From: a virus
Taxonomy: Duplodnaviria > Heunggongvirae > Uroviricota > Caudoviricetes
Length of the DNA stretch: 31,296 bases
Strand: one strand, 5' to 3'
Virus record (IMG/VR): IMGVR_UViG_2681813268_000004
In this document: positions 6,655-28,757 of the stretch, one piece after another
Layout: the number at the start of each line of letters is the position of its first letter
How positions within the stretch are numbered: position 1 is the first letter of the stretch
Notes under the pieces: model-generated
What the model was told of the DNA's origin: nothing
Seen by the model: only the letters and a program-made list of their open reading frames with translations
Databases searched by the model: none
Position numbers and translations under genes: made by a program

Positions 6655-8243
6655 AACGAACGCCTGTCCTGATTGATGTGAACGGCGTTCCGCTTCGTGA
6701 GAGTCTCAGCTACAACGGGGGCGGCGCAGGATTTGGCGGGCAAATGGCGGAGTGGTTGCCACCGGCGCAGAGTGCCGATGCAGCCCTGCTGCCTGCGTTG
6801 CGTCTGGGGAATGCCCGGGCAGATGATCTGGTGCGCAATAACGGGATAGCGGCTAATGCGGTGGCCCTGCATAAGGATCATATTGTCGGGCATATGTTTC
6901 TGATCAGCTACCGTCCGAACTGGCGCTGGCTGGGGATGCGGGAGACTGCGGCAAAAAGTTTTGTCGATGAGGTGGAGGCGGCCTGGTCAGAATACGCAGA
7001 AGGGATGTTTGGCGAGATCGACGTGGAAGGGAAACGCACGTTTACGGAATTTATCCGTGAAGGTGTGGGCGTTCATGCGTTTAACGGCGAAATCTTTGTG
7101 CAGCCGGTCTGGGATACGGAAACCACGCAGTTATTCCGTACGCGTTTTAAAGCCGTGAGTCCGAAACGGGTGGACACGCCAGGACGCGGTATCGGGAACC
7201 GTTTTCTGCGGGCCGGTGTGGAGGTTGATCGATATGGCCGTGCCGTTGCGTACCATATCTGTGAGGATGATTTTCCTCGCTCCGGGAGTGGACGATGGGA
7301 ACGGATCCCGCGTGAACTACCCACCGGGCGTCCGGCCATGCTGCATATTTTCGAGCCGGTGGAGGACGGGCAGACCCGTGGAGCCAATCAGTTTTACAGC
7401 GTTATGGAACGGCTGAAGATGCTGGATTCCCTGCAGGCAACACAGCTTCAGTCGGCCATAGTGAAGGCGATGTATGCAGCGACGATTGAAAGTGACCTTG
7501 ATACCGAAAAGGCCTTTGAATATATCGCCGGTGCGCCGCAGGGGCAGAAGGATAATCCGCTTATTAATATTCTGGATAAGTTCTCCACCTGGTATGACAC
7601 GAATAGCGTGACGCTGGGCGGTGTCAAAATTCCGCACCTTTTCCCCGGTGATGATCTGAAACTTCAGACCGCGCAGGATTCAGACAATGGATTTTCGGCG
7701 CTTGAACAGGCGCTGCTGCGGTATATCGCCGCCGGTCTTGGCGTTTCCTACGAACAGTTGTCCCGTGATTACTCGAAGGTCAGTTACTCAAGTGCCCGCG
7801 CATCCGCCAATGAGTCGTGGCGCTATTTTATGGGGCGGCGAAAATTTATTGCGTCCCGGCTGGCCACGCAGATGTTTTCCTGCTGGCTGGAAGAGGCACT
7901 TCTTCGGGGGATTATTCGTCCGCCACGGGCACGGTTTGATTTTTATCAGGCGCGATCAGCCTGGTCACGGGCTGAGTGGATTGGAGCCGGAAGAATGGCC
8001 ATTGACGGGCTCAAGGAGGTTCAGGAATCAGTGATGCGCATTGAGGCCGGACTGAGCACGTATGAGAAAGAGCTGGCGCTGATGGGCGAGGATTATCAGG
8101 ACATTTTCCGCCAGCAGGTCAGGGAATCTGCAGAGCGGGAAAAAGCCGGACTCTCACGTCCGGTGTGGATAGCGCAGGCGTATCAGCAGCAGATAGCGGA
8201 GAGTCGCAGGCCGGAAGAGGAGACAACACCACGTGAGACGTAA
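6651..8243 (+). CDS. B: Portal protein
   Basis: 530 aa; ATGA overlap with the W stop; position and size match lambda gpB (533 aa). Confidence 0.9.
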   Translation: MKRTPVLIDVNGVPLRESLSYNGGGAGFGGQMAEWLPPAQSADAALLPALRLGNARADDLVRNNGIAANAVALHKDHIVGHMFLISYRPNWRWLGMRETAAKSFVDEVEAAWSEYAEGMFGEIDVEGKRTFTEFIREGVGVHAFNGEIFVQPVWDTETTQLFRTRFKAVSPKRVDTPGRGIGNRFLRAGVEVDRYGRAVAYHICEDDFPRSGSGRWERIPRELPTGRPAMLHIFEPVEDGQTRGANQFYSVMERLKMLDSLQATQLQSAIVKAMYAATIESDLDTEKAFEYIAGAPQGQKDNPLINILDKFSTWYDTNSVTLGGVKIPHLFPGDDLKLQTAQDSDNGFSALEQALLRYIAAGLGVSYEQLSRDYSKVSYSSARASANESWRYFMGRRKFIASRLATQMFSCWLEEALLRGIIRPPRARFDFYQARSAWSRAEWIGAGRMAIDGLKEVQESVMRIEAGLSTYEKELALMGEDYQDIFRQQVRESAEREKAGLSRPVWIAQAYQQQIAESRRPEEETTPRET

Positions 8244-9738
8244 TCTTTCACACATTATTGCAGCAGCATTCAATGAACCGCTGCTTCTGGAGCCCGCCTA
8301 TGCGCGGGTTTTCTTTTGCGCGCTGGGGCGCGAGATGGGGGCAGCAAGTCTTTCGGTACCGCAACAGCAGGTACAGCTTGATGCTCCCGGGATGCTGGCT
8401 GAAACGGACGAGTACATGGCCGGAGGTAAACGACCGGCCCGTGTTTACCGGGTGGTGAACGGTATTGCGGTACTGCCGGTGACCGGCACGCTGGTGCACC
8501 GGCTGGGGGGGATGCGGCCATTTTCCGGAATGACTGGCTATGACGGCATTGTCGCCTGTCTTCAGCAGGCAATGGCAGATAGCCAGGTGCGGGGCATACT
8601 GCTGGACATTGACAGTCCGGGCGGGCAGGCCGCCGGCGCGTTTGACTGCGCTGACATGATTTACCGCCTCCGGCAGCAGAAGCCGGTCTGGGCACTGTGT
8701 AATGACACGGCCTGTTCTGCGGCCATGCTGCTGGCGTCGGCCTGCTCCCGACGGCTGGTTACCCAGACATCCCGTATCGGTTCCATTGGCGTGATGATGA
8801 GCCATGTCAGCTATGCCGGTCATCTGGCGCAGGCCGGTGTGGATATCACGCTGATTTACTCAGGGGCGCACAAGGTGGATGGCAATCAGTTTGAAGCGTT
8901 GCCGGCAGAGGTTCGCCAGGACATGCAGCAGCGGATTGATGCGGCGCGCCGGATGTTTGCCGAAAAAGTGGCGATGTTTACCGGTCTGTCTGTTGATGCA
9001 GTCACGGGAACAGAGGCCGCTGTTTTTGAAGGTCAGTCCGGCATTGAGGCCGGGCTGGCGGATGAATTAATCAATGCGTCGGATGCCATCAGTGTGATGG
9101 CCACGGCGCTGAACAGTAATGTCAGAGGAGGCACTATGCCGCAATTAACTGCAACGGAAGCCGCCGTGCAGGAGAACCAGCGAGTGATGGGGATCCTGAC
9201 ATGCCAGGAAGCGAAAGGACGTGAACAGCTTGCCACGATGCTGGCAGGGCAACAGGGCATGAGCGTTGAACAGGCCCGGGCGATTCTGGCCGCGGCGGCA
9301 CCGCAGCAGCCGGTGGCATCCGCGCAGAGTGAAGCCGATCGCATTATGGCGTGTGAAGAAGCGAACGGTCGTGAACAACTGGCGGCAACGCTGGCGGCGA
9401 TGCCGGAGATGACGGTGGAAAAAGCCCGCCCGATCCTGGCGGCTGCACCACTGGCGGATGCCGGGCCCTCACTTCGTGATCAGATCATGGCCCTGGATGA
9501 GGCAAAAGGGGCAGAAGCGCAGGCTGAAAAACTGGCGGCCTGCCCGGGAATGACCGTGGAGAACGCCCGGGCTGTGCTGGCTGCGGGATCAGGTAAGGCC
9601 GAACCGGTCTCTGCATCCACAACCGCCCTGTTTGAACATTTCATGGCGAATCATTCACCGGCAGCGGTGCGGGGTGGCGTGTCACAGACGTCAGCAGACG
9701 GTGATGCGGACGTGAAAATGCTCATGGCCATGCCATGA
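8233..9738 (+). CDS. C: Head maturation protease (S49/ClpP-like) with C-terminal scaffolding domain (C/Nu3 equivalent); the scaffold part has three tandem ~38-aa repeats
   Basis: 501 aa; N-terminal FNEPLLLEPAYARVFFCAL and protease core resemble lambda gpC by recall; C-terminal repeats QEAKGREQLATMLA..VEQARAILAAA / CEEANGREQLAATLA..VEKARPILAAA / LDEAKGAEAQAEKLA..VENARAVLAAG read directly. Confidence 0.85.
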   Translation: MRRNLSHIIAAAFNEPLLLEPAYARVFFCALGREMGAASLSVPQQQVQLDAPGMLAETDEYMAGGKRPARVYRVVNGIAVLPVTGTLVHRLGGMRPFSGMTGYDGIVACLQQAMADSQVRGILLDIDSPGGQAAGAFDCADMIYRLRQQKPVWALCNDTACSAAMLLASACSRRLVTQTSRIGSIGVMMSHVSYAGHLAQAGVDITLIYSGAHKVDGNQFEALPAEVRQDMQQRIDAARRMFAEKVAMFTGLSVDAVTGTEAAVFEGQSGIEAGLADELINASDAISVMATALNSNVRGGTMPQLTATEAAVQENQRVMGILTCQEAKGREQLATMLAGQQGMSVEQARAILAAAAPQQPVASAQSEADRIMACEEANGREQLAATLAAMPEMTVEKARPILAAAPLADAGPSLRDQIMALDEAKGAEAQAEKLAACPGMTVENARAVLAAGSGKAEPVSASTTALFEHFMANHSPAAVRGGVSQTSADGDADVKMLMAMP

Positions 9739-9774
9739 AGTCAGTGCTGACCATCAATATGAGGTTTTAACAAA

Positions 9775-10122
9775 ATGGTGACGAAAACCATCACTGAACA
9801 GCGTGCGGAAGTACGTATTTTTGCTGGTAATGATCCGGCTCATACCGCCACAGGCAGCAGCGGGATTTCTTCTGCAACACCGGCTCTGACGCCCCTGATG
9901 CTGGATGAAGCCACCGGGAAACTGGTGGTCTGGGATGGACAGAAAGCCGGTAGTGCGGTTGGCATACTGGTACTGCCGCTTGAAGGCACAGAGACGGTGC
10001 TGACCTATTACAAGTCGGGGACCTTTGCGACGGAGGCAATCCGCTGGCCTGACAGTGTGGATGAACACAAAAAGGCAAATGCCTTTGCCGGCACAGCCCT
10101 GAGTCACGCGGCTCTGCCATAA
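9775..10122 (+). CDS. D: Head decoration protein D
   Basis: 115 aa; ..NDPAHTATGSSG..PALTPLMLDEATGKLVVWDG..YYKSGTFA.. resembles lambda gpD by recall. Confidence 0.85.
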   Translation: MVTKTITEQRAEVRIFAGNDPAHTATGSSGISSATPALTPLMLDEATGKLVVWDGQKAGSAVGILVLPLEGTETVLTYYKSGTFATEAIRWPDSVDEHKKANAFAGTALSHAALP

Positions 10123-10130
10123 CACGTTAT

Positions 10131-10150
10131 CAGGCCACCATGGTGGCCTG
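10131..10150. promoter_or_regulatory. 20-bp perfect palindrome (caggccaccatggtggcctg) in the D-E intergenic region; possible RNA hairpin
   Basis: Perfect inverted repeat read directly, 30 nt upstream of the E start. Confidence 0.5.
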
Positions 10151-10179
10151 ACTGATTTCTGAATGAAAGGAACTGATTT

Positions 10180-11208
10180 ATGGGATTGTTTACGACCCGC
10201 CAGTTACTCGGTTATACCGAACAAAAAGTGAAATTCCGTGCGCTGTTTCTGGAGCTGTTTTTCCGCCGTACGGTGAATTTCCACACCGAAGAGGTGATGC
10301 TGGACAAAATTACCGGAAAAACGCCGGTGGCGGCCTATGTCTCCCCGATCGTTGAAGGAAAAGTGCTTCGCCATCGCGGTGGTGAAACCCGCGTGTTACG
10401 TCCGGGCTACGTCAAGCCGAAACACGAATTTAATTACCAGCAGGCGGTTGAGCGCCTTCCTGGTGAAGATCCGGCTCAGCTGAACGACCCGGCCTACCGT
10501 CGTCTGCGTATCATTACCGATAACCTCAAACAGGAAGAGCACGCCATTGTCCAGGTGGAAGAAATGCAGGCGGTGAATGCCGTGCTGTATGGCAAATACA
10601 CCATGGAAGGGGATCAGTTTGATACTGTCGAGGTGGATTTCGGGCGCTCTGAAGGAAATAACATTGAGCAGGCTGACGGTAAAAAATGGTCTGAGCAGGA
10701 CCGTGATACGTTTGATCCGACGCATGATATTGACCTCTACTGCGATCAGGCCAGCGGCCTTGTGAATATCGCCATTATGGACGGTACGGTCTGGCGTCTG
10801 CTGAATGGCTTTAAGCTGTTCCGCGAAAAACTGGATACCCGTCGCGGCTCAAATTCACAACTCGAAACGGCAGTGAAAGATCTGGGCGCAGTGGTGTCCT
10901 TCAAGGGGTATTACGGCGATCTGGCCATTGTGGTGGCGAAAACGTCTTATGTGGCAGAGGACGGTACCGAAAAACGTTATCTGCCGGAGGGCATGCTGGT
11001 GCTGGGGAATACGGCGGCAGAGGGGATTCGTTGCTATGGTGCCATTAAGGATGCACAGGCGTTGTCTGAAGGAGTGGTGGCTTCTTCCCGTTACCCGAAA
11101 CACTGGCTGACCGTGGGCGATCCGTCCTGTGAATTCACCATGACGCAGTCCGCTCCGCTGATGGTGCTGCCGGATCCGGATGAGTTTGTGGTGGTACAGG
11201 TGAAATAA
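10180..11208 (+). CDS. E: Major capsid protein
   Basis: 342 aa; colinear recalled similarity to lambda gpE (341 aa), e.g. ..YVSPIV.G.V....GG......PGYVKPKHE.. and the C-terminal ..TMTQSAPLMVLPDPDEFVVVQV. Confidence 0.9.
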   Translation: MGLFTTRQLLGYTEQKVKFRALFLELFFRRTVNFHTEEVMLDKITGKTPVAAYVSPIVEGKVLRHRGGETRVLRPGYVKPKHEFNYQQAVERLPGEDPAQLNDPAYRRLRIITDNLKQEEHAIVQVEEMQAVNAVLYGKYTMEGDQFDTVEVDFGRSEGNNIEQADGKKWSEQDRDTFDPTHDIDLYCDQASGLVNIAIMDGTVWRLLNGFKLFREKLDTRRGSNSQLETAVKDLGAVVSFKGYYGDLAIVVAKTSYVAEDGTEKRYLPEGMLVLGNTAAEGIRCYGAIKDAQALSEGVVASSRYPKHWLTVGDPSCEFTMTQSAPLMVLPDPDEFVVVQVK

Positions 11209-11216
11209 TCCGTGAG

Positions 11217-11245
11217 CGGGGGCGAAATGCCCCCGTGTCTTTTTT
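11217..11245 (+). terminator. Hairpin plus T-run immediately after E (possible attenuator or terminator)
   Basis: cgggggc gaaat gcccccg followed by tgtctttttt; AGGAGG and the FI ATG follow. Confidence 0.45.
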
Positions 11246-11259
11246 CACAGGAGGCTGAG

Positions 11260-11643
11260 ATGGCAACAAAAGAAGAAAATCTGAATCGTCTTCGTCAACT
11301 GGCTGGCCTGCTGGGGCGCGAGGCGGATATGTCGGGGAGTGCTGCGGATATTGCTCAACGTGTGTCTGAGTGGGAAGAGGAGCTTGCTGTTTCCCCGGAG
11401 GGCATTATGCACTCTGATGAGAGCGGGGCTGATCAAAATCACACAGACGATGGTGAGCAGTTGAACAACACGGATGCTCCGGATGATGTTAAAGCCGTCC
11501 GGGTACGGAAGTGCCTGCAAGTAATGGGGTATTGCCCGGAGACAGGTCGTCCCGTTGAGCTGGCGTTACGGGGTATGCGTGTTCTGGTGCCATCATCACT
11601 GGCAACGGCCATGATACAGCACGGAACGGCTGAATATGCGTGA
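11260..11643 (+). CDS. FI: DNA packaging / head assembly protein FI
   Basis: ATG 11260 preceded by aggagg; 127 aa; position between E and FII; acidic central region. Identity based mainly on synteny. Confidence 0.7.
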   Translation: MATKEENLNRLRQLAGLLGREADMSGSAADIAQRVSEWEEELAVSPEGIMHSDESGADQNHTDDGEQLNNTDAPDDVKAVRVRKCLQVMGYCPETGRPVELALRGMRVLVPSSLATAMIQHGTAEYA

Positions 11644-11989
11644 TTTTCAGAATGCCTTTGATGCTGCCCTCGCCGGGGTAGACAGTACGATCGTTGAAGT
11701 GATGGGGCTCTGTGCGCAGTTCACCTCGGGGGCACAGTGTGGCAGCGAAGTTCAGGGGGTTTTTGACGATCCGGAGTCGCTGGGGTTTGCCGGTGGCGGG
11801 GTCCGTATTGAAGGAAGCAGCCCGTCATTATTTGTGCGGACGGATACGGTTCGTGCCGTGCGGCGTGGTGACACGCTGACCATTAATGGTGAGACATTCT
11901 GGGTGGATCGTGTTTCTCCGGATGACGGGGGCAGCTGTTATCTCTGGCTCAACCGTGGGCAACCACCCGCAGTTAACCGGCGACGATAA
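11636..11989 (+). CDS. FII: Head-tail connector protein FII
   Basis: 117 aa; ..GVFDDPE......G.GVR.EGSSPSLFVRTD.VR..RRGDTLTI....FWVDRVSPDDGGSC.LWL.RG.PPAVNRRR matches lambda FII by recall. Confidence 0.85.
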   Translation: MRDFQNAFDAALAGVDSTIVEVMGLCAQFTSGAQCGSEVQGVFDDPESLGFAGGGVRIEGSSPSLFVRTDTVRAVRRGDTLTINGETFWVDRVSPDDGGSCYLWLNRGQPPAVNRRR

Positions 11990-12003
11990 ACGCAGGGTGA
12001 ATT

Positions 12004-12579
12004 ATGGCGATAAAAGGGCTTGATCAGGCGATTGACAATCTGAGCCGGGTTCGTAAAAACGCCATTCCGGCTGCTTCTGCAATGACCATTAACCGCGTGG
12101 CCACAACGGCGATTAATCAGTCTTCGTCACAGGTTGCCCGGGAAACCAGGGTGAGACGGAAACTGGTAAAGGAACGGTCCAGACTGAAACGGGCGACGGT
12201 CAGAAATCCGAATGCCAGAATTATCGTTAACCGCGGTGATCTCCCTGTGATTAAGCTGGGGATCAGAATGCTGGGGCGTCGTCCGAACAGCATACTCAAA
12301 GCCGGTCAGCATCGTTATCAGCGGGCATTTATCCAGCGATTAAATAATGGGCGCTGGCATGTTATGCAACGTCTTCCCCAGGCCAGATATGAGGAGGGCA
12401 ATGACGACAAGGGAAGGAAAAAGCGTAATCGCCTTCCCATTCAGGTGGTGAAAATCCCGATGGCGGCCCCACTGAAACAGGCATTTGATGAGAATGTTGA
12501 CCGTATCCGGCGTGAACGCCTGCCTAAAGAACTGGCATACGCGCTGAAACAACAACTGAGGATTGCGATAAAACGATGA
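12004..12579 (+). CDS. Z: Tail completion protein Z
   Basis: 191 aa; MAIKGL.QA..NLSR......P.A.AM.INRVA...I.QS.SQVARET.VRRKLVKER.RLKRATV.NP.ARI.VNRGDLPVIKLG.. matches lambda gpZ by recall. Confidence 0.85.
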   Translation: MAIKGLDQAIDNLSRVRKNAIPAASAMTINRVATTAINQSSSQVARETRVRRKLVKERSRLKRATVRNPNARIIVNRGDLPVIKLGIRMLGRRPNSILKAGQHRYQRAFIQRLNNGRWHVMQRLPQARYEEGNDDKGRKKRNRLPIQVVKIPMAAPLKQAFDENVDRIRRERLPKELAYALKQQLRIAIKR

Positions 12580-12971
12580 AACACACTGACATTCGTGCCG
12601 CAGTGCTGGATGCACTCGAGCAGCATGAACACGGGGCGACGCTGTTTGATGGTCGCCCCGTTGTTTTTGACGAAGAGGATTTTCCTGCGATCGCGGTTTA
12701 TCTGACGGATGCAGAGTATACCGGTGAAGAGCTGGATGCAGATACCTGGCGGGCCACGCTGCATATTGAGGTGTTTTTACCGGCACAGGTACCGGATTCA
12801 GAGCTTGATCAGTGGATGGAAAGCCGGATTTACCCGGCGATGACCGCGATCCCGGCACTGGCAGGACTGATTACCACGATGGTTACGCAGGGCTATGAGT
12901 ATCGTCGTGATGACGATATGGCGTTATGGAGTTCTGCAGATCTGACTTATTCCATTACATACGAGATGTGA
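12576..12971 (+). CDS. U: Tail terminator protein U
   Basis: 131 aa; ATGA overlap with Z; [73 protein letters not shown] matches lambda gpU by recall. Confidence 0.9.
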
Positions 12972-12978
12972 GGACGAT

Positions 12979-13731
12979 ATGGCAACACCAAATCCCCTTG
13001 AGCCGGTAAAAGGTGCCGGCACCACTCTGTGGGTTTACAACGGCAAGGGTGATGCTTATGCAAACCCGTTGTCAGACGATGACTGGCAGCGACTGGCTAA
13101 GGTGAAGGATCTGACGCCGGGCGAGATGACGGCAGAATCCTACGATGATAACTACCTGGATGATGAAGACGCGGACTGGACCGCGACCGGGCAGGGGCAG
13201 AAATCTGCAGGTGATACCAGTTTTACGCTGGCCTGGAAACCGGGAGAGGAAGGCCAGAAAGGGCTTATAGGCTGGTTTGAAAGCGGCGATGTCCGGGCCT
13301 ATAAAATCCGTTTTCCGAATGGCACGGTGGATGTGTTTCGTGGCTGGGTCAGCAGTATCGGTAAGGCCGTGACGGCGAAAGAAGTGATCACCCGCACGGT
13401 GAAAGTCACTAACGTGGGTAAACCTTCTGTAGCGGAAGAACGCAGCAAAATTACGCCGGTCAGTGCGATTAAGGTGACGCCGACATCCGGTACGGTGGCA
13501 AAAGGGAAAACAACCACCCTGACGGTTTCTTTTGAGCCGGAAAGTGCAACCGACAAGACGTTCAGAGCGGTTTCCGCCGATCCGTCGAAAGCCACCATTA
13601 GTGTGAAAGATATGACAATTACGGTAAACGGCGTGGCGACAGGTAAGGTGCAGATCCCTGTGGTGAGCGGAAATGGTCAGTTCGCCGCAGTGGCTGAAGT
13701 CACCGTTACTGAAGCGGGCGCTGCAGGGTAA
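12979..13731 (+). CDS. V: Major tail tube protein V, with C-terminal Ig-like domain
   Basis: 250 aa; ..[69 protein letters not shown].. matches lambda gpV by recall. Confidence 0.9.
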
Positions 13732-13744
13732 ACGGAGGTAATAC

Positions 13745-14176
13745 ATGTTTCTGAAAACAGAACAATTTGAATATAACGGTGTGTCTGTCACGCTTTCCGA
13801 ATTGTCTGCGCTGCAGCGTATCGAGCATCTTGCCCTCCTGAAACGGCGTGCAGAACAGGCAGAATCCAGCGGCAACCTGCAGGTAAGCGTGGAAGATCTC
13901 GTCAGAACCGGCGCGTTTCTGGTGGCGATGTCCCTGTGGCATAACCATCCACAGAAAACGCAGTCACCGTCAATGAATGAGGCCGTGATGAAGATAGAGC
14001 AGGAAGTGCTCACCACCTGGCCTGCCGATGCCATTGCCCGGGCGGAAGACGTGGTGTTGTGCCTGTCCGGGATGATCGAAGCTGTTCGTCCGGATACTGA
14101 TATTACTGAAGTGGCGAAAAATAACACGCTGACTGATGATGATTTTTCTGCGGGAAAGTCTTCGACGGCGAGCTGA
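13745..14176 (+). CDS. G: Tail assembly chaperone G
   Basis: 143 aa; MFLKTE.FE.NGV.VTLSELSALQRIEHLAL.KR.AEQAES.. matches lambda gpG by recall; slippery site near the 3' end. Confidence 0.85.
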   Translation: MFLKTEQFEYNGVSVTLSELSALQRIEHLALLKRRAEQAESSGNLQVSVEDLVRTGAFLVAMSLWHNHPQKTQSPSMNEAVMKIEQEVLTTWPADAIARAEDVVLCLSGMIEAVRPDTDITEVAKNNTLTDDDFSAGKSSTAS

Positions 14177-14616
14177 ACTTTGCCCTCAGACTGGCGCGTG
14201 AGATGGGGAGACCCGACTGGCGCGCCATGCTTGCCGGGATGACATCCACCGAATATGCCGACTGGCACCGTTTTTACCGCACGCATTATTTTCAGGATAC
14301 CCAGCTGGATATGCATTTTTCCGGGCTGACGTACGCTGTACTCAGCCTGTTTTTTTGCGATCCGGATATGCATCCCTCTGATTTCAGTCTGCTTGTCCCC
14401 CGGCATGAGGAAGAGCAGGTGGAGAGGCCGGATGAGGACAAAATGCTGATGCAGAAAGCGGCAGGACTTGCCGGAGGCGTCCGGTTCGGTGGGGACGGAG
14501 GGCGCGATATTTTATCGTCTGCGGATGTGGCGGATGTCATGGTGGATGAAGCCGCATTAATGATGGCTTCAGCGGGGATTCCGGGAGGTGTGAGATATGT
14601 CCCAGCCGGTTGGTGA
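13745..14616 (+). CDS. T: G-T fusion tail assembly protein made by -1 frameshift at 14152-14158
   Basis: Frame arithmetic: G frame is coordinate mod 3 = 2, T frame is mod 3 = 1; T ends at 14616, overlapping the H start at 14597. Confidence 0.7.
14152..14158 (+). promoter_or_regulatory. Programmed -1 ribosomal frameshift slippery heptamer G GGA AAG (G to G-T)
   Basis: gggaaag sits in the G zero frame as G_GGA_AAG; the downstream T ORF (14203..14616 as listed) is in the -1 frame relative to G. Confidence 0.75.
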
Positions 14617-17600
14617 TCTTGTTATTGACCTGAGTCTGGATGCTGTCCGTTTCGATGAGCAGATGAGCCGGGTAAGGCGTCATTTTTCAGGTCTGGATAC
14701 CGACGCCAGAAAAACCGCCAGTGCTGTTGAACAGGGCCTGAGCCGCCAGGCGCTGGCTGCACAAAAAGCCGGGATTTCCGTCGGGCAGTATAAAGCGGCC
14801 ATGCGAACCCTGCCCGCACAGTTTACGGATATCGCCACGCAGCTTGCCGGTGGTCAGAATCCCTGGCTGATCCTGCTGCAACAGGGCGGTCAGGTGAAGG
14901 ACTCCTTCGGCGGGATGATCCCCATGTTCAGGGGGCTTGCCGGTGCGATCACCCTGCCGATGGTCGGGGTCACCTCGCTGGCGGTGGCGACAGGTGCGCT
15001 GGTGTACGCCTGGTACCAGGGAGATTCCACGCTTTCAGCGTTTAATAAAACGCTGGTCCTTTCCGGCAATCAGGCGGGACTGACGGCAGATCGTATGCTG
15101 GTCCTGTCCAGAGCCGGGCAGGCGGCAGGGCTGACGTTTAACCAGACCAGCGAGTCACTCAGCGCACTGGTTAAGGCGGGGGTAAGCGGTGAGGCTCAGA
15201 TTGCGTCCATCAGCCAGAGTGTGGCGCGTTTCTCCTATGCATCCGGCGTGGAGGTGGACAAGGTCGCTGAAGCCTTCGGGAAGCTGACCACAGACCCGAC
15301 GTCGGGGCTGACGGCGATGGCACGCCAGTTCCATAACGTGACGGCGGAGCAGATTGCGTATGTTGCTCAGTTGCAGCGTTCCGGCGATGAAGCCGGGGCA
15401 TTGCAGGCGGCGAACGAGGCCGCAACGAAAGGGTTTGATGACCAGACCCGCCGCCTGAAAGAGAACATGGGCACGCTGGAGACCTGGGCAGACAGGACTG
15501 CACGTGCATTCAAATCCATGTGGGATGCGGTGCTGGATATTGGTCGTCCTGATACCGCGCAGGAGATGCTGATTAAGGCAGAGGCTGCGTTTAAGAAAGC
15601 AGACGACATCTGGAATCTGCGCAAGGATGATTATTTTGTTAACGATGAAGCGCGGGCGCGTTACTGGGATGATCGTGAAAAGGCCCGTCTTGCGCTTGAA
15701 GCCGCCCGAAAGAAGGCTGAGCAGCAGACTCAACAGGACAAAAATGCGCAGCAGCAGAGCGATACCGAAGCGTCACGGCTGAAATATACCGAAGAGGCGC
15801 AGAAGGCTTACGAACGGCTGCAGACGCCGCTGGAGAAATATACCGCCCGTCAGGAAGAACTGAACAAGGCACTGAAAGACGGGAAAATCCTGCAGGCGGA
15901 TTACAACACGCTGATGGCGGCGGCGAAAAAGGATTATGAAGCGACGCTGAAAAAGCCGAAACAGTCCGGCGTGAAGGTGTCTGCGGGCGATCGTCAGGAA
16001 GACAGTGCTCATGCNTGCATCCGGCGTGGAGGTGGACAAGGTCGCTGAAGCCTTCGGGAAGCTGACCACAGACCCGACGTCGGGGCTGACGGCGATGGCA
16101 CGCCAGTTCCATAACGTGACGGCGGAGCAGATTGCGTATGTTGCTCAGTTGCAGCGTTCCGGCGATGAAGCCGGGGCATTGCAGGCGGCGAACGAGGCCG
16201 CAACGAAAGGGTTTGATGACCAGACCCGCCGCCTGAAAGAGAACATGGGCACGCTGGAGACCTGGGCAGACAGGACTGCACGTGCATTCAAATCCATGTG
16301 GGATGCGGTGCTGGATATTGGTCGTCCTGATACCGCGCAGGAGATGCTGATTAAGGCAGAGGCTGCGTTTAAGAAAGCAGACGACATCTGGAATCTGCGC
16401 AAGGATGATTATTTCGTTAACGATGAAGCACGGGCGCGTTACTGGGATGATCGTGAAAAAAAACGCCTGGAGCGGGATGCAGCCCAAAAGAGGGTAGATC
16501 AACAGCGTCAACAGGACAAAAATGCGCAGCAGCAGAGCGATACCGAAGCGTCACGGCTGAAATATACCGAAGAGGCGCAGAAGGCTTACGAACGGCTGCA
16601 GACGCCGCTGGAGAAATATACCGCCCGTCAGGAAGAACTGAACAAGGCACTGAAAGACGGAAAAATCCTGCAGGCAGATTACAACACGCTGATGGCGGCG
16701 GCGAAAAAGGATTATGAAGCGACGCTGAAAAAGCCGAAACAGTCCGGCGTGAAGGTGTCTGCGGGCGATCGTCAGGAAGACAGTGCTCATGCTGCCCTGC
16801 TGACGCTTCAGGCAGAACTCCGGACGCTGGAGAAGCATGCCGGAGCGAATGAGAAAATCAGCCAGCAGCGCCGGGATTTGTGGAAGGCAGAAAGTCAGTT
16901 CGCGGTACTGGAGGAGGCGGCACAACGTCGCCAGCTGTCCGCACAGGAGAAATCCCTGCTGGCGCATAAAGACGAGACGCTGGAGTACAAACGCCAGCTG
17001 GCTGCACTTGGTGACAAGGTTACGTATCAGGAGCACCTGAATGCGCTGGCGCAGCAGGCGGATAAATTCGCACAGCAGCAACGGGCAAAACGGGCAGCCA
17101 TTGATGCGAAAAACCGGGGGCTGACTGACCGGCAGGCAGCGCGGGAAGCCACGGAACAGCGCCTGAAGGAACAGTATGGCGATAATCCTCTGGCGCTGAA
17201 TAACGTCATGTCAGAGCAGAAAAAGACCTGGGCGGCTGAAGACCAGCTTCGCGGGAGCTGGATGGCAGGCCTGAAGTCCGGCTGGAGTGAGTGGGAAGAG
17301 AGCGCCACGGACAGTATGTCACAGGTTAAAAGTGCAGCCACGCAGACCTTTGATGGTATTGCACAGAATATGGCGGCGATGCTGACCGGCAGTGANGCCC
17401 TGCTGACGCTTCAGGCAGAACTCCGGACGCTGGAGAAGCATGCCGGAGCGAATGAGAAAATCAGCCAGCAGCGCCGGGATTTGTGGAAGGCAGAAAGTCA
17501 GTTCGCGGTACTGGAGGAGGCGGCACAACGTCGCCAGCTGTCCGCACAGGAGAAATCCCTGCTGGCGCATAAAGATGAGACGCTGGAGTACAAACGCCAG

Positions 17601-18539
17601 CTGGCTGCACTTGGCGATAAGGTCACGTATCAGGAGCGCCTGAACGCGCTGGCGCAGCAGGCGGATAAATTCGCACAGCAGCAACGGGCAAAACGGGCCG
17701 CTATTGATGCGAAAAGCCGGGGGCTGACTGACCGGCAGGCAGAACGGGAAGCCACGGAACAGCGCCTGAAGGAACAGTATGGCGATAATCCTCTGGCGCT
17801 GAATAACGTCATGTCAGAGCAGAAAAAGACCTGGGCGGCTGAAGACCTGCTTCGCGGGAGCTGGATGGCAGGCCTCAGGTCCGGCTGGAGCGAGTGGAAA
17901 GAGAGTGCCACGGACAGTATGTCGCAGGTAAAAAGTGCAGCCACGCAGACCTTTGATGGTATTGCGCAGAATATGGCGGCGATGCTGACCGGCAGTGAGC
18001 AGAACTGGCGCAGCTTCACCCGTTCCGTGCTGTCCATGATGACAGAAATTCTGCTTAAGCAGGCAATGGTGGGGATTGTCGGGAGTATTGGCAGCGCCAT
18101 TGGCGGGGCTGTTGGTGGCGGCGCATCAGCGTCAGGCGGTACAGCCATTCAGGCCGCTGCGGCGAAATTCCATTTTGCAACCGGAGGATTTACGGGAACC
18201 GGCGGCAAATATGAGCCAGCGGGGATTGTTCACCGTGGTGAATTTGTCTTCACGAAGGAGGCAACCAGCCGGATTGGCGTGGGAAATCTCTACCGGCTGA
18301 TGCGCGGCTATGCCACCGGCGGTTATGTCGGTGGCACCGGAAGTCCGGCGCAAATGCGGCGTTCAGAGGGTATCAGGTTTGAGCAGAACAACAACGTGGT
18401 GATTCAGAACGACGGTACGAATGGTCTGCCAGGTCCACAGATGATGAAGGCGGTGTATGACATGGCCCGCAAGGGTGCCCGTGATGAAATCCAGGCACAG
18501 ATGCGCGATGGTGGTCTGTTCTCCGGAGGTGGACGATGA
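14597..18539 (+). CDS. H: Tail tape measure protein; the span is inflated by two N-delimited redundant blocks, and the non-redundant length is 2562 nt (853 codons)
   Basis: Position after G-T; conserved C-terminal end overlapping M; Gln/Ala/Lys-rich coiled-coil-like middle. N at 16015 and 17396, each followed by a re-start at an earlier point of the gene. Confidence 0.8.
16016..16792 (+). repeat. Redundant variant copy of H block 15238..16014 (follows the N at 16015)
   Basis: Sequence after the N matches 15238.. at an offset of 778 nt, with a divergent patch (protein DDREKARLALEAARKKAEQQTQQ versus DDREKKRLERDAAQKRVDQQRQQ). Confidence 0.85.
17397..17998 (+). repeat. Redundant variant copy of H block 16794..17395 (follows the N at 17396)
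   Basis: Sequence after the N matches 16794.. at an offset of 603 nt, with scattered SNPs. Confidence 0.85.
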
Positions 18540-18865
18540 AAACCTTCCGCTGGAAAGTGAAACCCGGGATGGATGTGACATCGGCTCCTTCCGTCAGGGA
18601 GGTGCGCTTTGGTGATGGCTATTCCCAGCGTGCGCCTGCCGGGCTGAACGCTGACCTGAAAACGTACAGCGTGACGCTGTCTGTCTCCCGTGAGGAGGCC
18701 ACGGCGCTGGAGTCGTTTCTGGAAGAGCACGGGGGCTGGAAAGCCTTTCTGTGGACGCCGCCTTATGAGTGGCGGCAGATAAAGGTGACCTGCGCAAAAT
18801 GGTCGTCGCGGGTCAGTATGTTGCGTGTTGAGTTCAGCGCAGAGTTTAAACAGGTGGTGAACTGA
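18536..18865 (+). CDS. M: Minor tail protein M
   Basis: 109 aa; MKTFRWKVKPGMDV...PSVR.VRFGDGYSQRAPAGLNA.LKTYSVTLSV.REEAT.LESFLEEHGGWK.FLWTPPYEWRQIKVTCAKWSSRVSML matches lambda gpM by recall. Confidence 0.9.
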   Translation: MKTFRWKVKPGMDVTSAPSVREVRFGDGYSQRAPAGLNADLKTYSVTLSVSREEATALESFLEEHGGWKAFLWTPPYEWRQIKVTCAKWSSRVSMLRVEFSAEFKQVVN

Positions 18866-19563
18866 TGCAGGATATCCGGCAGGAAACACTGAATGAATGC
18901 ACCCGTGCGGAGCAGTCGGCCAGCGTGGTGCTCTGGGAAATCGATCTGACAGAGGTCGGTGGAGAACGTTATTTTTTCTGTAATGAGCAGAACGAAAAAG
19001 GTGAGCCGGTCACCTGGCAGGGGAGGCAGTATCAGGCGTATCCCATTCAGGGGAGCGGTTTTGAACTGAATGGCAAAGGCACCAGTACGCGGCCCACGCT
19101 GGCAGTCTCTAACCTGTACGGCATGGTCACCGGTATGGTGGAAGATATGCAGAGTCTGGTCGGCGGAACGGTGGTCCGGCGTAAGGTTTACGCCCGTTTT
19201 CTGGATGCGGTGAACTTCGTCAACGGAAACAGAGACGCCGATCCGGAGCAGGAGGTGATCAGCCGCTGGCGCATCGAGCAGTGCAGCGAACTGAGCGCGG
19301 TGAGTGCCTCCTTTGTACTGTCCACGCCGACGGAAACGGATGGCGCTGTTTTTCCGGGGCGTATCATGCTGGCCAACACCTGCACCTGGACCTATCGCGG
19401 CGATGAGTGCGGTTATCACGGTCCGGCGGTCGCGGATGAATATGACCAGCCAACGTCCGATATCACGAAGGATAAATGCAGCAAATGCCTGAGCGGTTGT
19501 AAGTTCCGCAATAACGTCGGCAACTTTGGCGGCTTCCTTTCCATTAACAAACTTTCGCAGTAA
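18865..19563 (+). CDS. L: Minor tail protein L (block 1 allele)
   Basis: 232 aa; TGATG overlap with M; cysteine-rich C-terminus (..CTWTYRGDECGY..KCSKCLSGCKFRNN..). Confidence 0.9.
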   Translation: MQDIRQETLNECTRAEQSASVVLWEIDLTEVGGERYFFCNEQNEKGEPVTWQGRQYQAYPIQGSGFELNGKGTSTRPTLAVSNLYGMVTGMVEDMQSLVGGTVVRRKVYARFLDAVNFVNGNRDADPEQEVISRWRIEQCSELSAVSASFVLSTPTETDGAVFPGRIMLANTCTWTYRGDECGYHGPAVADEYDQPTSDITKDKCSKCLSGCKFRNNVGNFGGFLSINKLSQ

Positions 19564-19574
19564 NNNNNNNNNNN
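19564..19574. other. 11-N gap or junction
   Basis: n run read directly; sequence resumes inside M. Confidence 0.95.
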
Positions 19575-22371: not shown

Positions 22372-22382
22372 NNNNNNNNNNN
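22372..22382. other. 11-N gap or junction
   Basis: n run read directly; sequence resumes at the same internal M position as after the first gap. Confidence 0.95.
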
Positions 22383-26656: not shown

Positions 26657-26894
26657 GGCGCAGCCGGGCGATGTGCTGCTGTGCTGTTTTGGTTCATCGG
26701 TGCCGAATCATGCCGCCATTTACTGTGGTGACGGCGAGCTGCTGCACCATATTCCTGAACAACTGAGCAAACGAGAGAGGTACACCGACAAATGGCAGCG
26801 ACGCACACACTCCCTCTGGCGTCACCGGGCATGGCACGCATCTGCCTTTACGGGGATTTGCAACGATTTGGCCGCCGCATCGACCTTCGTGTGA
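26657..26894 (+). CDS. K: K, 3' fragment (begins at ..AQPGDVLLCCFGSS.. after the N junction)
   Basis: In-frame K C-terminal 79 codons. Confidence 0.55.
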
Positions 26895-27433
26895 AAACGG
26901 GGGCTGAAGCCATCCGGGCACTGGCCACACAGCTCCCGGCGTTTCGTCAGAAACTGAGCGATGGCTGGTATCAGGTACGGATTGCCGGGCGGGATGCAGG
27001 AGAAACCGAATTATCATCCCGTCTTAATGAGCCGCTGGCAAATGGTGCCGTGATCCACATCGTGCCGCGTCTTGCGGGAGCAAAAAGTGGCGGTGTGTTT
27101 CAGGCGGTGCTGGGTGCGGCGTTGATTGCTACGGCAATCTGGATGCCGGGGATCAGTATCGCTTTCAGTGACATTCTCTTTTCAATGGGTGCGGCGATGA
27201 CGCTTGGTGGTGTGGCGCAGATGCTGGCACCGAAAGCCAGAACTCCCCGTACACAGACAACGGATAACGGCAAACAGAACACCTATTTCTCCTCACTGGA
27301 TAACATGGTTGCCCAGGGCAATGTCCTGCCTGTTCTGTACGGTGAAATGCGCGTGGGGTCACGTGTGGCATCTCAGGAGATCAGCACGGCAGATGAAGGG
27401 GATGGTGGTCAGGTTGTGGTAATTGGGCGGTAA
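26792..27433 (+). CDS. I: Tail tip assembly protein I (third allele; centre ..AALIATAIWMPGISIAFSDILFSMGAAMTLGG..)
   Basis: 213 aa; conserved ends with a distinct central hydrophobic segment. Confidence 0.85.
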   Translation: MAATHTLPLASPGMARICLYGDLQRFGRRIDLRVKTGAEAIRALATQLPAFRQKLSDGWYQVRIAGRDAGETELSSRLNEPLANGAVIHIVPRLAGAKSGGVFQAVLGAALIATAIWMPGISIAFSDILFSMGAAMTLGGVAQMLAPKARTPRTQTTDNGKQNTYFSSLDNMVAQGNVLPVLYGEMRVGSRVASQEISTADEGDGGQVVVIGR

Positions 27434-27506
27434 TATTATTTTACTCATGTTCTAACTGATTTAATATTTATATCGAACACTGATAATTATTCTATTGGTT
27501 AGCTAT

Positions 27507-27845
27507 ATGAACAAAACGATTTTATTCTGCACGATTATTGCCTTAACAGGATGTAAATCTTTGGATTACGTAAAATCCGGAAAACCTGTAATGGAAGGTA
27601 ATTCATTAAAAAATATTGATGAATTGTCAGGCTGCATATCCAGACAATGGGCTGGTAATGGAACACCTATAACATCCCTTCCTATTGAGAATGGGGTAAG
27701 CCTTTTAGTTCCACAGGCTATGGGGGGATATGATGTTGTGCTTGATATCAAAAAAGCAGGAAATGGCAGTAGTTTTACTCTTTATGAACGTGTACCAGCA
27801 TTAACGCCAAAAATTTTTGCTGATAGTGTTAATGCATGTAAATAA
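27507..27845 (+). CDS. Predicted lipoprotein (moron) inserted between I and J; 112 aa precursor with lipobox LTGC
   Basis: ATG 27507; signal peptide MNKTILFCTIIALTGC with Cys16 and Lys at +2; visibly AT-rich island 27434-27911 (the only one in the window); followed by hairpin gagccgcc tttt gggcggct and a T-rich run before J. Confidence 0.65.
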   Translation: MNKTILFCTIIALTGCKSLDYVKSGKPVMEGNSLKNIDELSGCISRQWAGNGTPITSLPIENGVSLLVPQAMGGYDVVLDIKKAGNGSSFTLYERVPALTPKIFADSVNACK

Positions 27846-27911
27846 TAGTTAATCCTGTCGTAACTCATGAGCCGCCTTTTGGGCGGCTTTGTTGTTTATG
27901 GAGTGTGAGGA

Positions 27912-28756
27912 ATGGGTAAAGGAAGCAGTAAGGGGCATACCCCGCGCGAAGCGAAGGACAACCTGAAGTCCACGCAGCTGCTGAGTGTGATCGATGCCAT
28001 CAGCGAAGGGCCGGTTGAAGGTCCGGTGGATGGATTAAAAAGCGTGCTGCTGAACAGTACGCCGGTGCTGGACACTGAGGGGAATACCAACATCGCCGGT
28101 GTCACGGTGGTGTTCCGTGCCGGTGAGCAGGAGCAGACACCGCCGGAGGGGTTTGAATCTTCCGGCTCCGAGACGGTGCTGGGTACGGAAGTGAAATACG
28201 ACACGCCGATCACCCGGACTATCACGTCTGCAAACATCGACCGTCTGCGCTTTACCTTCGGTGTGCAGGCACTGGTGGAAACCACCTCAAAGGGGGACCG
28301 GAATCCGTCGGAAGTCCGCCTGCTGGTTCAGATACAGCGTAATGGTGGCTGGGTGACGGAAAAAGACATCACCATTAAGGGCAAAACCACCTCGCAGTAT
28401 CTGGCCTCGGTGGTGGTGGATAACCTGCCGCCGCGCCCGTTCAATATACGGATGCGCAGGATGACGCCGGACAGCACCACAGACCAGCTGCAGAACAAAA
28501 CGCTCTGGTCGTCATACACCGAAATCATCGATGTGAAACAGTGCTACCCGAACACGGCACTGGTCGGCGTGCAGGTGGATTCGGAGCAGTTCGGCAGCCA
28601 GCAGGTGAGCCGTAATTATCATCTGCGCGGGCGTATTCTGCAGGTGCCGTCGAATTATAACCCGCAGACGCGGCAATACAGCGGTATCTGGGACGGAACG
28701 TTTAAACCGGCATACAGCAACAACATGGCCTGGTGTCTGTGGGATATGCTGACCCA
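27912..28756 (+). CDS. J: J, 5' fragment (cut by the N at 28757)
   Basis: gpJ N-terminal 281 codons; the listed 446-aa ORF 27912..29252 is a J-K chimera across the N. Confidence 0.7.
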
Positions 28757-28757
28757 N

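What the first reader, a model, noticed from the sequence alone, without database searches (positions are those of the whole stretch)
27434..27911. Low-GC lipoprotein moron inserted between I and J, immediately upstream of the receptor-binding tail protein gene
In four of the five I-J junctions here the intergenic region is about 60 bp containing only a hairpin. In the block at 26792-28756 it is expanded to about 480 bp of conspicuously AT-rich DNA carrying one gene (27507-27845) for a 112-aa protein with a canonical lipoprotein signal peptide (MNKTILFCTIIALTGC, Lys at +2, suggesting outer-membrane sorting) and its own downstream hairpin plus T-run. That promoter-gene-terminator architecture in foreign-composition DNA is the definition of a moron. 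By position it recalls T5 Llp and phi80/HK022 Cor, lipoproteins encoded next to the receptor-binding protein gene that block the phage's own receptor for superinfection exclusion. That function is inference only; I do not recognise the protein sequence.
Basis: partly seen in the sequence, partly recalled or inferred. Interest (0 to 1): 0.7.

Follow-up and report, generated by a model that had tools for sequence, protein, structure and literature searches.

The report
Lipoprotein cargo gene in lambda-type tail cluster

Summary
At 27434-27911 the usual 60-bp I-J spacer is replaced by 478 bp of 34% GC DNA against 57% in the flanks. It carries one intact 112-aa gene (27507-27845) with a canonical lipobox (LTGC) and Lys at +2.

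Two details are wrong. The downstream hairpin is the native I-J hairpin found at all five junctions. No convincing promoter was found.

The protein belongs to PHROG 914 (function unknown) and is annotated "hypothetical". It occupies about 4% of lambda-type I-J junctions in complete E. coli genomes and is under purifying selection. It is not homologous to Cor, T5 Llp, Bor or the mEp021 lipoprotein; its predicted fold most resembles the Francisella lipoprotein Flpp3.

Relatives in Klebsiella, Kluyvera, Serratia and Pseudomonas phages almost always lie immediately upstream of gene I. An Enterobacter clade has it upstream of the tape-measure gene.

The near-invariant E. coli allele is linked to at least four J receptor-binding types and three unrelated tape-measure modules. 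That argues against masking of the phage's own receptor.

Best guess (unproven): an envelope-acting exclusion lipoprotein working at a receptor-independent step. K|I and I|J are already known moron slots in HK97. Moderately interesting.

The parts
26792..27433 (+). Gene I (tail-tip protein I, 213 aa), immediately upstream of the insert
   Evidence: ORF list. 100% identical to the annotated 'tail assembly protein' of E. coli ATCC 11775.
27434..27868 (+). AT-rich inserted cassette (about 435 bp, 33.8% GC) lying between the I stop codon and the native I-J hairpin
   Evidence: Alignment of the five junctions and of lambda and mEp460. Composition. Present in 337 of 5,426 complete E. coli genomes.
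27507..27845 (+). Lipoprotein gene, 112 aa (WP_001332187.1-like; PHROG 914)
   Evidence: Translation. PHROG 914 match, E 7e-33, full length. Homologues and purifying selection. AlphaFold2 model with pLDDT 83.7.
27507..27554 (+). Signal peptide with lipobox LTGC. The Cys16 codon is at 27552-27554, followed by Lys at +2.
   Evidence: Read from the sequence. The lipobox is conserved at about residue 16 in nearly all of 125 family clusters.
27434..27520 (+). 5' leader. It has only weak promoter-like matches. The predicted RNA structure pairs the start-codon region.
   Evidence: Promoter scans. Fold energy -15.7 kcal/mol, z -3.4.
27869..27899 (+). Hairpin (9 bp stem, 6 G-C pairs) plus T-run. This is the resident I-J intergenic hairpin, not specific to the insert.
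   Evidence: Terminator scan. Fold energy -16.7 kcal/mol. Homologous hairpin at all five junctions, in lambda and in mEp460.
27912..28756 (+). 5' part of gene J (central tail fibre / host specificity protein), cut off by an N at 28757

Best explanation
What is shown: an intact accessory gene for a lipoprotein of about 96 aa (mature) has been inserted into the I-J spacer of one lambda-type tail cluster. It is predicted to be lipidated at Cys16 and, with Lys at +2, sorted by Lol to the periplasmic face of the outer membrane. It belongs to an uncharacterised family (PHROG 914) whose usual position, from Pseudomonas to Enterobacteriaceae, is inside the tail-tip gene cluster directly upstream of gene I. 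In some phages it is translationally coupled to K, and it is always followed by a hairpin plus T-run.

What is inferred: it works at the cell envelope to hinder entry of phages, that is, superinfection exclusion and/or protection during the lytic cycle. It does not do this by masking the receptor read by its own J tip. More likely it acts at a receptor-independent step, such as outer-membrane penetration and ejection by the tail-tip plug (gpI with the C-terminus of the tape measure), or on a common envelope component.

The descriptive part is near-certain. The functional part is a best guess.
For: Gene reality and lipoprotein features:
-.
- Three Cys are invariant across 44 divergent members: the lipobox Cys plus C43 and C111. 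Whether C43 and C111 form a disulfide (which would fit export) is my inference, not something I tested.

Accessory, foreign cassette:
-.

Conserved placement in lambda-type tail-tip clusters:
- K|I position, immediately upstream of I: Klebsiella and Kluyvera; phages Fraca and LMessi; nine of ten Pseudomonas IMG/VR loci; P. aeruginosa phage D14P and Serratia phage OS31; metagenomic members.
- In phiAH14a, and in the tenth Pseudomonas locus (L098), the pair lipoprotein plus gpI-like gene stands alone with no K or J beside it; in phiAH14a it lies in the early region, outside the tail cluster.
- The Enterobacter clade sits directly upstream of the tape-measure gene.

Other points:
- The gene start overlaps the end of K in L095 and L107.
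- Between loci whose K and J N-termini differ by only 6-16%, the lipoprotein differs by 76-78%, yet dN/dS is low within clades. This is the pattern of discrete specificity types.
- Independence from the J receptor-binding domain and from the tape-measure type.
- Published lambda structures show gpI as the trimeric tip plug. Its hydrophobic helices are proposed to insert into the outer membrane, and it binds the C-terminus of gpH (PMC11101478, PMC12617516). These are the phage proteins that would meet a lipoprotein on the periplasmic face of the outer membrane.
- Precedents for tail-region lipoproteins that exclude phages: the mEpimmI lipoproteins (PMC11893012); Cor, Llp and Ltp (established knowledge).
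Against: - There is no experimental evidence for any function, and no homology to a characterised protein.
- No promoter was found, so expression from the repressed prophage, which classical exclusion needs, is unproven.
- A family member in Shimwellia blattae is chromosomal, in a non-phage neighbourhood between a yidB-like gene and ecotin. The family is therefore not intrinsically a phage function.
- Mantel tests show no specific co-evolution with gpI beyond what K, L and J also show.
- K|I and I|J are general moron slots, as in HK97. Placement may only reflect permissive sites.
Confidence: 0.42

Rival explanations
1. A Cor/Llp-like lipoprotein binds and inactivates the outer-membrane receptor used by the adjacent J protein. 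It excludes the phage's own kind and protects progeny from receptor in cell debris.
For: It is an outer-membrane-type lipoprotein next to the receptor-binding protein gene. Lipoproteins in structural clusters of mEpimmI phages exclude phages that use the same receptor (PMC11893012). Llp and Cor are precedents.
Against: The same allele (98-100% identical) is linked to at least four J C-terminal types, including an unrelated one in L036 and L041. The commonest J C-terminus is in 56 phage records that lack the gene. The usual family position is upstream of I, not next to the J receptor-binding domain, which is encoded about 3 kb downstream. There is no homology or fold match to Llp or Cor. Fraca carries a separate cor gene as well.
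Confidence: 0.15
2. A lysogenic-conversion factor unrelated to phage entry. It would be an envelope lipoprotein that changes host fitness or virulence, as Bor/Iss does for serum resistance or Lom for adhesion, and would simply ride in a permissive tail-cluster slot.
For: The nearest structural neighbour is the Francisella virulence lipoprotein Flpp3. There is a chromosomal, non-phage homologue in Shimwellia. The gene is widespread in commensal and pathogenic E. coli from many hosts. HK97 shows that these slots accept unrelated morons.
Against: The family is kept in the same tail-tip position in phages of environmental Pseudomonas and Serratia. It is sometimes translationally coupled to K, implying late co-expression with tail genes. 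It is absent from Pfam and NCBIfam virulence families, and Bor aligns only over the signal peptide.
Confidence: 0.2
3. A lytic-cycle helper made from the late tail operon. It would be exported late to modify the envelope of the producing cell, for example limiting loss of progeny on debris or aiding release, and would have no role in the lysogen.
For: No own promoter was found. The gene overlaps or closely abuts K in several phages. The Shine-Dalgarno sequence or start codon lies in a leader hairpin in five of five contexts examined, which fits translation coupled to upstream ribosomes. It is present in the cultured phages Fraca, LMessi, OS31 and D14P.
Against: It is dispensable, being absent from about 96% of E. 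coli I-J junctions and from most cultured relatives. Protecting progeny by receptor masking would again need matching to the J receptor-binding domain, which is not seen.
Confidence: 0.18
4. A decaying or non-functional hitchhiker ORF in junk AT-rich DNA.
For: Translation signals in the E. coli copy are weak. Frameshifted copies exist (P0002, P0007, P0017, P0018; L070-L072).
Against: It is a full-length, conserved family of 125 clusters with an invariant lipobox and two further invariant Cys. dN/dS is 0.05-0.2 where there are substitutions to measure. The fold is predicted with confidence.
Confidence: 0.03

Closest known systems
HK97 tail-cluster morons: gp22 and gp23 between I and J, a small ORF plus terminator between K and I, and gp15 between T and H
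   Same: They occupy the same three intergenic slots (I|J, K|I, T|H) in lambda-type tail clusters. They are extra low-GC genes present in some phages and absent in close relatives. The HK97 record labels gp22 and gp23 'moron product'. From established knowledge, HK97 gp15 is a membrane protein that blocks DNA entry.
   Different: There is no sequence relationship: the family HMM finds nothing in the HK97 stretch fetched (8500-19000, tape-measure gene to J). That stretch does not include gp15, so gp15 was not compared. The present cargo is a lipoprotein of a family conserved across genera. No own promoter was shown here.
Cor (phi80, N15, HK022, T1) and T5 Llp, lipoproteins that inactivate FhuA
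   Same: They are small phage-encoded outer-membrane lipoproteins encoded near tail and receptor-binding genes. They are the obvious functional analogy.
mEpimmI phage exclusion lipoproteins (Lpp021 and Lpp010; PMC11893012)
   Same: They are lipoproteins within the structural gene cluster of temperate coliphages, and exclusion has been shown experimentally.
   Different: mEp021 gp81 is 72 aa, lies downstream of J on the opposite strand, and is not homologous.
Ltp of Streptococcus thermophilus phage TP-J34
   Same: It is a prophage lipoprotein that blocks DNA injection by targeting the tape-measure protein. That is the kind of receptor-independent mechanism favoured here.
   Different: Its host is Gram-positive and its fold and family are unrelated. 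The analogy rests on established knowledge and was not tested here.
Flpp3 / DUF3568 (Francisella tularensis lipoprotein; PDB 6pny, 2mu4, 9nlt)
   Different: Sequence identity is 6-9% and there is no Pfam DUF3568 hit. The similarity is at fold level only, and the function of Flpp3 is itself unknown.
Lambda Bor / Iss
   Same: It is a prophage-encoded outer-membrane lipoprotein of similar size, a classic lambda moron.
   Different: Only the signal peptide aligns. There is no Pfam Lambda_Bor hit. Its genome position is different, next to the lysis genes.

Membership tests
Moron (as defined for HK97/HK022 by Juhala and Hendrix) | An extra gene present at a junction where close relatives have none | tested here: met
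   Four of five junctions in the window, lambda, mEp460 and 107 phage records have the plain 60-bp spacer. About 4% of E. coli I-J junctions carry the insert.
Moron (as defined for HK97/HK022 by Juhala and Hendrix) | Nucleotide composition unlike the flanking phage genes | tested here: met
   GC is 33.8-36.3% (GC3 23.9%) against 57% in the flanks. The same holds for enterobacterial homologues: 41-46% against 44-55%.
Moron (as defined for HK97/HK022 by Juhala and Hendrix) | Its own promoter upstream | tested here: inconclusive
   No sigma-70 consensus hit on the + strand. Only 8/12 matches in AT-rich DNA. Homologues overlap or abut K, leaving no intergenic room.
Moron (as defined for HK97/HK022 by Juhala and Hendrix) | Its own terminator downstream | tested here: inconclusive
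   A hairpin plus T-run is present, but here it is the resident I-J hairpin. In K|I and T|H contexts the gene is likewise followed by a hairpin plus T-run.
Moron (as defined for HK97/HK022 by Juhala and Hendrix) | Expression from the repressed prophage | not testable with these tools
   Needs RNA-seq or 5'-RACE on a lysogen such as E. coli ATCC 11775.
Bacterial lipoprotein (signal peptidase II substrate) | Positively charged n-region, hydrophobic h-region and a lipobox [LVI][ASTVI][GAS]C | tested here: met
   The sequence is MNK-TILFCTIIA-LTGC. The lipobox is conserved at about residue 16 in nearly all family clusters.
Bacterial lipoprotein (signal peptidase II substrate) | Outer-membrane sorting (no Asp at +2) | tested here: met
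   Lys at +2 and Ser at +3; the motif CKSLD is conserved in the enterobacterial clade. This is a sequence rule only. Localisation itself is not testable here.
Bacterial lipoprotein (signal peptidase II substrate) | Actual lipidation and globomycin-sensitive processing | not testable with these tools
   Requires an experiment.
PHROG 914 | Full-length profile match | tested here: met
   E 7.3e-33, residues 1-112 against profile positions 1-118 of 118. The function of the family is unknown.
Cor superinfection-exclusion lipoproteins | Sequence homology to Cor | tested here: not met
   hhalign probability 2.6%, signal peptide only. The family HMM does not hit Fraca cor.
T5 Llp | Sequence or fold similarity to Llp | tested here: not met
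Receptor-masking exclusion (Llp/Cor mode of action) | Cargo matched to the receptor-binding domain of the carrying phage | tested here: not met
   One allele occurs with at least four J C-terminal types and three tape-measure modules. The same J C-terminus is common without the gene.
Receptor-masking exclusion (Llp/Cor mode of action) | Reduced adsorption or plating of phages on expressing cells | not testable with these tools
   Requires an experiment.
Lambda Bor / Iss (PF06291) | Pfam or profile match | tested here: not met
   No Pfam hit. hhalign aligns the signal peptide only.
Known anti-phage defence systems (PADLOC) | Match to any PADLOC model | tested here: not met
   0 families at E up to 10.

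The most novel reading that the evidence does not exclude
The family is a receptor-independent exclusion device specific to lambda-type tails. A lipoprotein on the periplasmic face of the outer membrane would intercept the ejected tip plug (the N-terminal and hydrophobic part of gpI, with the C-terminus of the tape measure) as it emerges through the outer membrane. That would stop formation of the trans-envelope channel. This reading would explain three things: why the gene is kept next to I (or next to the tape-measure gene) from Pseudomonas to E. coli; why it is indifferent to the J receptor-binding domain; and why it occurs as highly divergent allelic types in otherwise similar tail clusters.
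Probability: 0.2. Interest if true: 0.7.

Novelty: new member of a known kind. Interest (0 to 1): 0.42.

Why it matters
Cargo genes in phage tail clusters are a known source of superinfection exclusion and lysogenic conversion. Only a few lipoprotein families (Cor, Llp, Bor, Ltp, the mEp lipoproteins) have been studied.

This one is uncharacterised, sits in about 6% of complete E. coli genomes, and has relatives in Klebsiella, Enterobacter, Serratia and Pseudomonas prophages. Its steady position beside gene I, and its independence from the receptor-binding domain, make it a cheap and testable candidate for an exclusion mechanism. Such a mechanism would act on outer-membrane penetration by lambda-type tails, a step whose players (gpI and the C-terminus of gpH) have only recently been seen structurally.

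If it does exclude phages, it would matter for predicting prophage-conferred resistance in phage therapy. If it does not, it is simply one more moron of unknown function.

Tried and rejected
- Pfam, NCBIfam, PADLOC and PDB sequence searches gave nothing. The only NCBIfam hit was a VirB7 signal-peptide match at E 0.08. Ten distant family members also have no Pfam family.
- Rfam on 27300-28000 gave only a sub-threshold GcvB match, 19.6 bits against a gathering score of 42. I rejected it.
- The AFDB50 fold library was unavailable.
- The GTDB genome scan returned one locus only, because the search patterns were too strict. An alignment of the wide family was too divergent for the locus finder. Scans with P0030 and P0036 found nothing. 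tblastn of the Klebsiella type against cultured phages found nothing.
- Cluster names for distant members were uninformative, mostly unnamed metagenomic proteins.
- Literature searches for the accession and for tail-cluster lipoproteins found no paper on this family.
- Co-evolution with gpI. A first partial-correlation analysis looked positive, but it used inconsistent trimming and non-independent pairs. With clean trimming and Mantel permutation, the lipoprotein's distances correlate equally with I, K, L and J (r 0.37-0.57). There is therefore no specific signal.
- The 140-aa lipoprotein AH14a_p83 and AH14b_p21, which the phiAH14 authors proposed to be Cor-like, are not convincing homologues: hhalign probability 43% and 4%. 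The true family member in phiAH14a is the mis-annotated p33/p34 ORF.
- The antisense ORFs 27535-27666 and 27566-27751, and a minus-strand promoter-like site, were considered and set aside as chance in AT-rich DNA.

Full report
THE WINDOW

The window is not a continuous genome stretch. It contains Ns at 1062, 16015, 17396, 19564-74, 22372-82, 24833, 26656 and 28757. Neighbouring blocks repeat each other: there are five copies of the K-I-J region at 82-100% identity over 300-nt repeat windows, and some blocks overlap the next by hundreds of bases. It is a scaffold of lambda-like prophage contigs from a draft E. coli assembly. The block of interest is only 26657-28756: the end of K, gene I, the insert and the first 845 bases of J.

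CHECKING THE OBSERVATION

- Gene I ends at 27433 and J starts at 27912.
- The other four I-J spacers are exactly 60 bp, and this one is 478 bp.
- The insert is 33.8% GC. The ORF 27507-27845 is 36.3% GC, with 23.9% at third codon positions, against 57% in I and J.
- The ORF encodes 112 aa beginning MNKTILFCTIIALTGC-KS. This is a textbook lipoprotein signal peptide with Lys at +2. By the +2 rule (established knowledge) that means Lol-dependent sorting to the outer membrane.

Two details do not hold.

- The hairpin and T-run at 27869-27899 (stem of 9 pairs, -16.7 kcal/mol) align with the hairpin at the same distance from the J start in all five junctions, in lambda and in mEp460. The cassette therefore lies between the I stop codon and the resident hairpin. 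It replaces 17 nt of the native spacer.
- No sigma-70-like promoter was found on the + strand. A relaxed scan finds only 8/12 matches (TTTACT-16-TAATAT and TTTAAT-16-GATAAT), which AT-rich DNA gives by chance. The Shine-Dalgarno sequence is poor.

IS IT A REAL GENE, AND HOW COMMON IS IT?

- The 478 bp occur at 95-100% identity in 337 of 5,426 complete E. coli genomes (349 places), always annotated "hypothetical protein". One example is WP_001332187.1 in the type strain ATCC 11775, in a complete lambda-like prophage next to trpA/yciEFG.
- A probe across a plain I-J junction finds 8,687 places in 4,291 genomes, so about 4% of junctions carry the cassette.
- None of the 107 cultured phage records that share the flanks has it. 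tblastn of the protein against 50,697 phage records finds only two distant relatives.
- Among 57 E. coli-type loci from IMG/VR there are 13 alleles, with 11 synonymous and 6 non-synonymous variable sites. Seven homologue pairs could be compared: five give dN/dS of 0.05-0.2 and two show no non-synonymous change.
- A profile search of 1.84 billion representative proteins finds 125 clusters (E below 1e-3). Nearly all are about 112 aa with a lipobox near residue 16.
- Across 44 divergent members the lipobox Cys and two further Cys (C43, C111) are invariant. I infer that C43 and C111 form a disulfide, which would fit an exported protein.
- Some copies are frameshifted.

WHAT THE PROTEIN IS

- Pfam, NCBIfam, PADLOC and the PDB sequence search give nothing. 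PHROG 914, of unknown function, matches over its full length at E 7e-33.
- An AlphaFold2 model built on 12 homologues is confident: mean pLDDT 83.7, and about 90 for the mature part. It is a two-layer alpha/beta sandwich.
- T5 Llp does not appear among the hits.
- Profile comparisons with Fraca Cor, T5 Llp (sequence verified), lambda Bor and the tested exclusion lipoprotein gp81 of mEp021 align only the signal peptides.

WHERE THE FAMILY LIVES

This was the most informative result.

- E. coli clade: in 59 E. coli-type IMG/VR loci the gene is always between I and J.
- Klebsiella, Kluyvera and further IMG/VR loci (50-59% identical): between K and I, 30-60 bp upstream of I.
- Phages Fraca and LMessi (30% identical): likewise between K and I.
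- Metagenomic members P0021, P0022, P0028 and P0030: downstream of K, or directly upstream of I where only that side is on the contig.
- Pseudomonas: nine of ten IMG/VR loci have the order K - (variable insert) - lipoprotein - I - J; in the tenth (L098) the lipoprotein is directly upstream of a gpI-like gene with no K or J on the contig.
- P. aeruginosa phage D14P, where the gene is unannotated, and Serratia phage OS31 (p54): K - lipoprotein - I - J as well.
- Pseudomonas phage phiAH14a: a clear family member (E 1.6e-28, mis-annotated as p33/p34) lies directly upstream of a second gpI-like gene (p32). This pair is in the early region, outside the tail cluster.
- An Enterobacter clade (about 51% identical): between the chaperone gene T and the tape-measure gene, which is the slot of HK97 gp15.
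- Shimwellia blattae: one member is chromosomal and not phage-associated.

Further features of these contexts:

- In L095 and L107 the start overlaps the end of K, which suggests translational coupling.
- In every context a hairpin plus T-run follows the gene.
- Enterobacterial copies are 2-21 GC points below their flanks (most by about 9-13 points). Pseudomonas copies run from 8 points below to 3 points above their locus as a whole.

TESTING THE RECEPTOR-MASKING IDEA

If the lipoprotein blocked the receptor read by its own J, it should co-vary with the J C-terminus. It does not.

- Next to lipoproteins that are 98-100% identical, the last 300 aa of J fall into at least four types. Some are only 38-57% identical over the last 200 residues. 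In L036 and L041 the C-terminus is replaced by an unrelated one.
- The same allele is found with three different tape-measure and tail-tube modules (about 100%, 80% and 27% identical), and with varied Lom and side-fibre genes.
- The commonest J C-terminus is present, at 80% coverage or more, in 56 cultured phage records (VT1-Sakai, PPompW and others), none of which has the gene.
- Fraca carries an annotated cor gene as well as this family.

WHAT FITS BETTER

- The constant feature is a lambda-type tip module (M-L-K-I-J), with the gene usually beside I or, once, beside the tape-measure gene.
- Recent structures show that gpI is a virion protein. It is a trimeric plug in the tip that binds the C-terminus of gpH. 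On LamB binding it opens and is proposed to insert its two hydrophobic helices into the outer membrane. gpH* then forms the periplasmic channel (PMC11101478 and PMC12617516).
- An outer-membrane lipoprotein facing the periplasm is in the right place to meet exactly these proteins. Exclusion lipoproteins that act on ejection rather than adsorption are known, for example Ltp (established knowledge).
- The lipoprotein differs by 76-78% between loci whose K and J N-termini differ by 6-16%, while dN/dS is low within clades. This is the pattern expected of discrete specificity types.

All of this is inference. Mantel tests show the lipoprotein's distances correlate no better with I than with K, L or J. 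The chromosomal homologue and the lack of a promoter keep the other readings open: a fitness factor, or a late lytic-cycle helper.

COMPARISON WITH WHAT IS KNOWN

The GenBank record of HK97 already marks gp22 and gp23 between I and J as "moron product". It also has a small membrane ORF plus terminator between K and I. HK97 gp15, between T and H, is a known DNA-entry blocker (established knowledge). The slots and the kind of element are therefore known.

What is new is the cargo: an uncharacterised lipoprotein family, unrelated to Cor, Llp, Bor and the mEp lipoproteins, that keeps its place beside gene I across genera. The phiAH14 authors speculated in 2016 that a different lipoprotein in that slot (p83, 140 aa) is Cor-like (PMC4936722). 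That protein is not a convincing homologue. No paper on the present family was found.

VERDICT

The feature is real and correctly located. It is a compositionally foreign accessory lipoprotein gene in a known moron slot. The full promoter-gene-terminator architecture and the "blocks its own receptor" reading are not supported. The best-supported function is an envelope-level interference with phage entry that does not depend on the J receptor-binding domain. I hold that at about 0.4 confidence; it needs the simple plating, adsorption and ejection experiments listed. Novelty: a new member of a known kind. Interest: moderate.

Noticed in passing
window 1-31296 (N at 1062, 16015, 17396, 19564-19574, 22372-22382, 24833, 26656, 28757): The window is a scaffold of overlapping or alternative contigs joined by N. 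The five K-I-J copies are collapsed or alternative prophage fragments, not a tandem array. Some blocks repeat the end of the previous one exactly (15238-15537 equals 16016-16315; 786-1061 equals 1263-1538).
   Followed up: partly
L097 (phiAH14a, KU708004) 13998-14984, minus strand: A true family member (115 aa, lipobox LLSGC, E 1.6e-28) is mis-annotated as two short hypothetical genes (p33, p34). It sits directly upstream of a second gpI-like gene (p32) in the early region, far from the tail cluster. The lipoprotein and gpI-like gene appear to travel as a pair. L098 is a near-identical pair on a separate contig.
   Followed up: partly
L003 (LMessi) 5647-5994; L002 (Fraca) 5725-5994; L106 4624-4959: A second small exported protein often precedes the family lipoprotein in the K|I slot. 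It has a lipobox (IVGC) in LMessi and a type-I signal peptide in the Pseudomonas locus, and carries the shared motif DPDSAKF...NAKNSYGAY. It is conserved between E. coli and Pseudomonas phages. Function unknown.
   Followed up: no
window 27434-27520; L010 7915-8015; L006 7940-8015; L013 9940-10015; L109 4900-4975: In all five contexts examined, the Shine-Dalgarno sequence or start codon of the lipoprotein gene lies in a small leader hairpin of different sequence. z-scores are -2 to -3.4 for four leaders and -1.1 for the Enterobacter one (L010). This may indicate translational control or coupling to the upstream gene. It is not statistically solid.
   Followed up: partly
L089 and L090, 1270-5940: In these metagenomic phages the K|I slot has also taken up a 4.5-kb block with Arc-like repressors and Bro-N / KilA-N / ANT antirepressor genes. 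This is an immI-like module inside the tail gene cluster.
   Followed up: no
L108 (P. aeruginosa phage vB_PaeS-D14P, BK061589) 5001-5336: The family gene between K and I is not annotated in the public record.
   Followed up: yes
L086 (Shimwellia blattae CP001560) 8001-8339: A family member at a fixed chromosomal, non-phage locus, between a yidB-like gene and ecotin and near copCD. The phage genes may derive from, or have donated to, a host lipoprotein family.
   Followed up: partly
L036 and L041 (IMG/VR): These lambda-type J genes have an ordinary N-terminal 850 aa (92% identical to lambda over L036). The C-terminus, however, is replaced by one of the type found in the Fraca and other Hendrixvirinae-like J proteins (ending ...RVRMGRLF). 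This is a clean example of receptor-binding-domain swapping downstream of an unchanged lipoprotein cassette.
   Followed up: partly
window 27672-27897: A sub-threshold Rfam match to GcvB (19.6 bits against a gathering score of 42, E 0.055) spans the 3' part of the gene and the hairpin. I judged it to be chance.
   Followed up: yes
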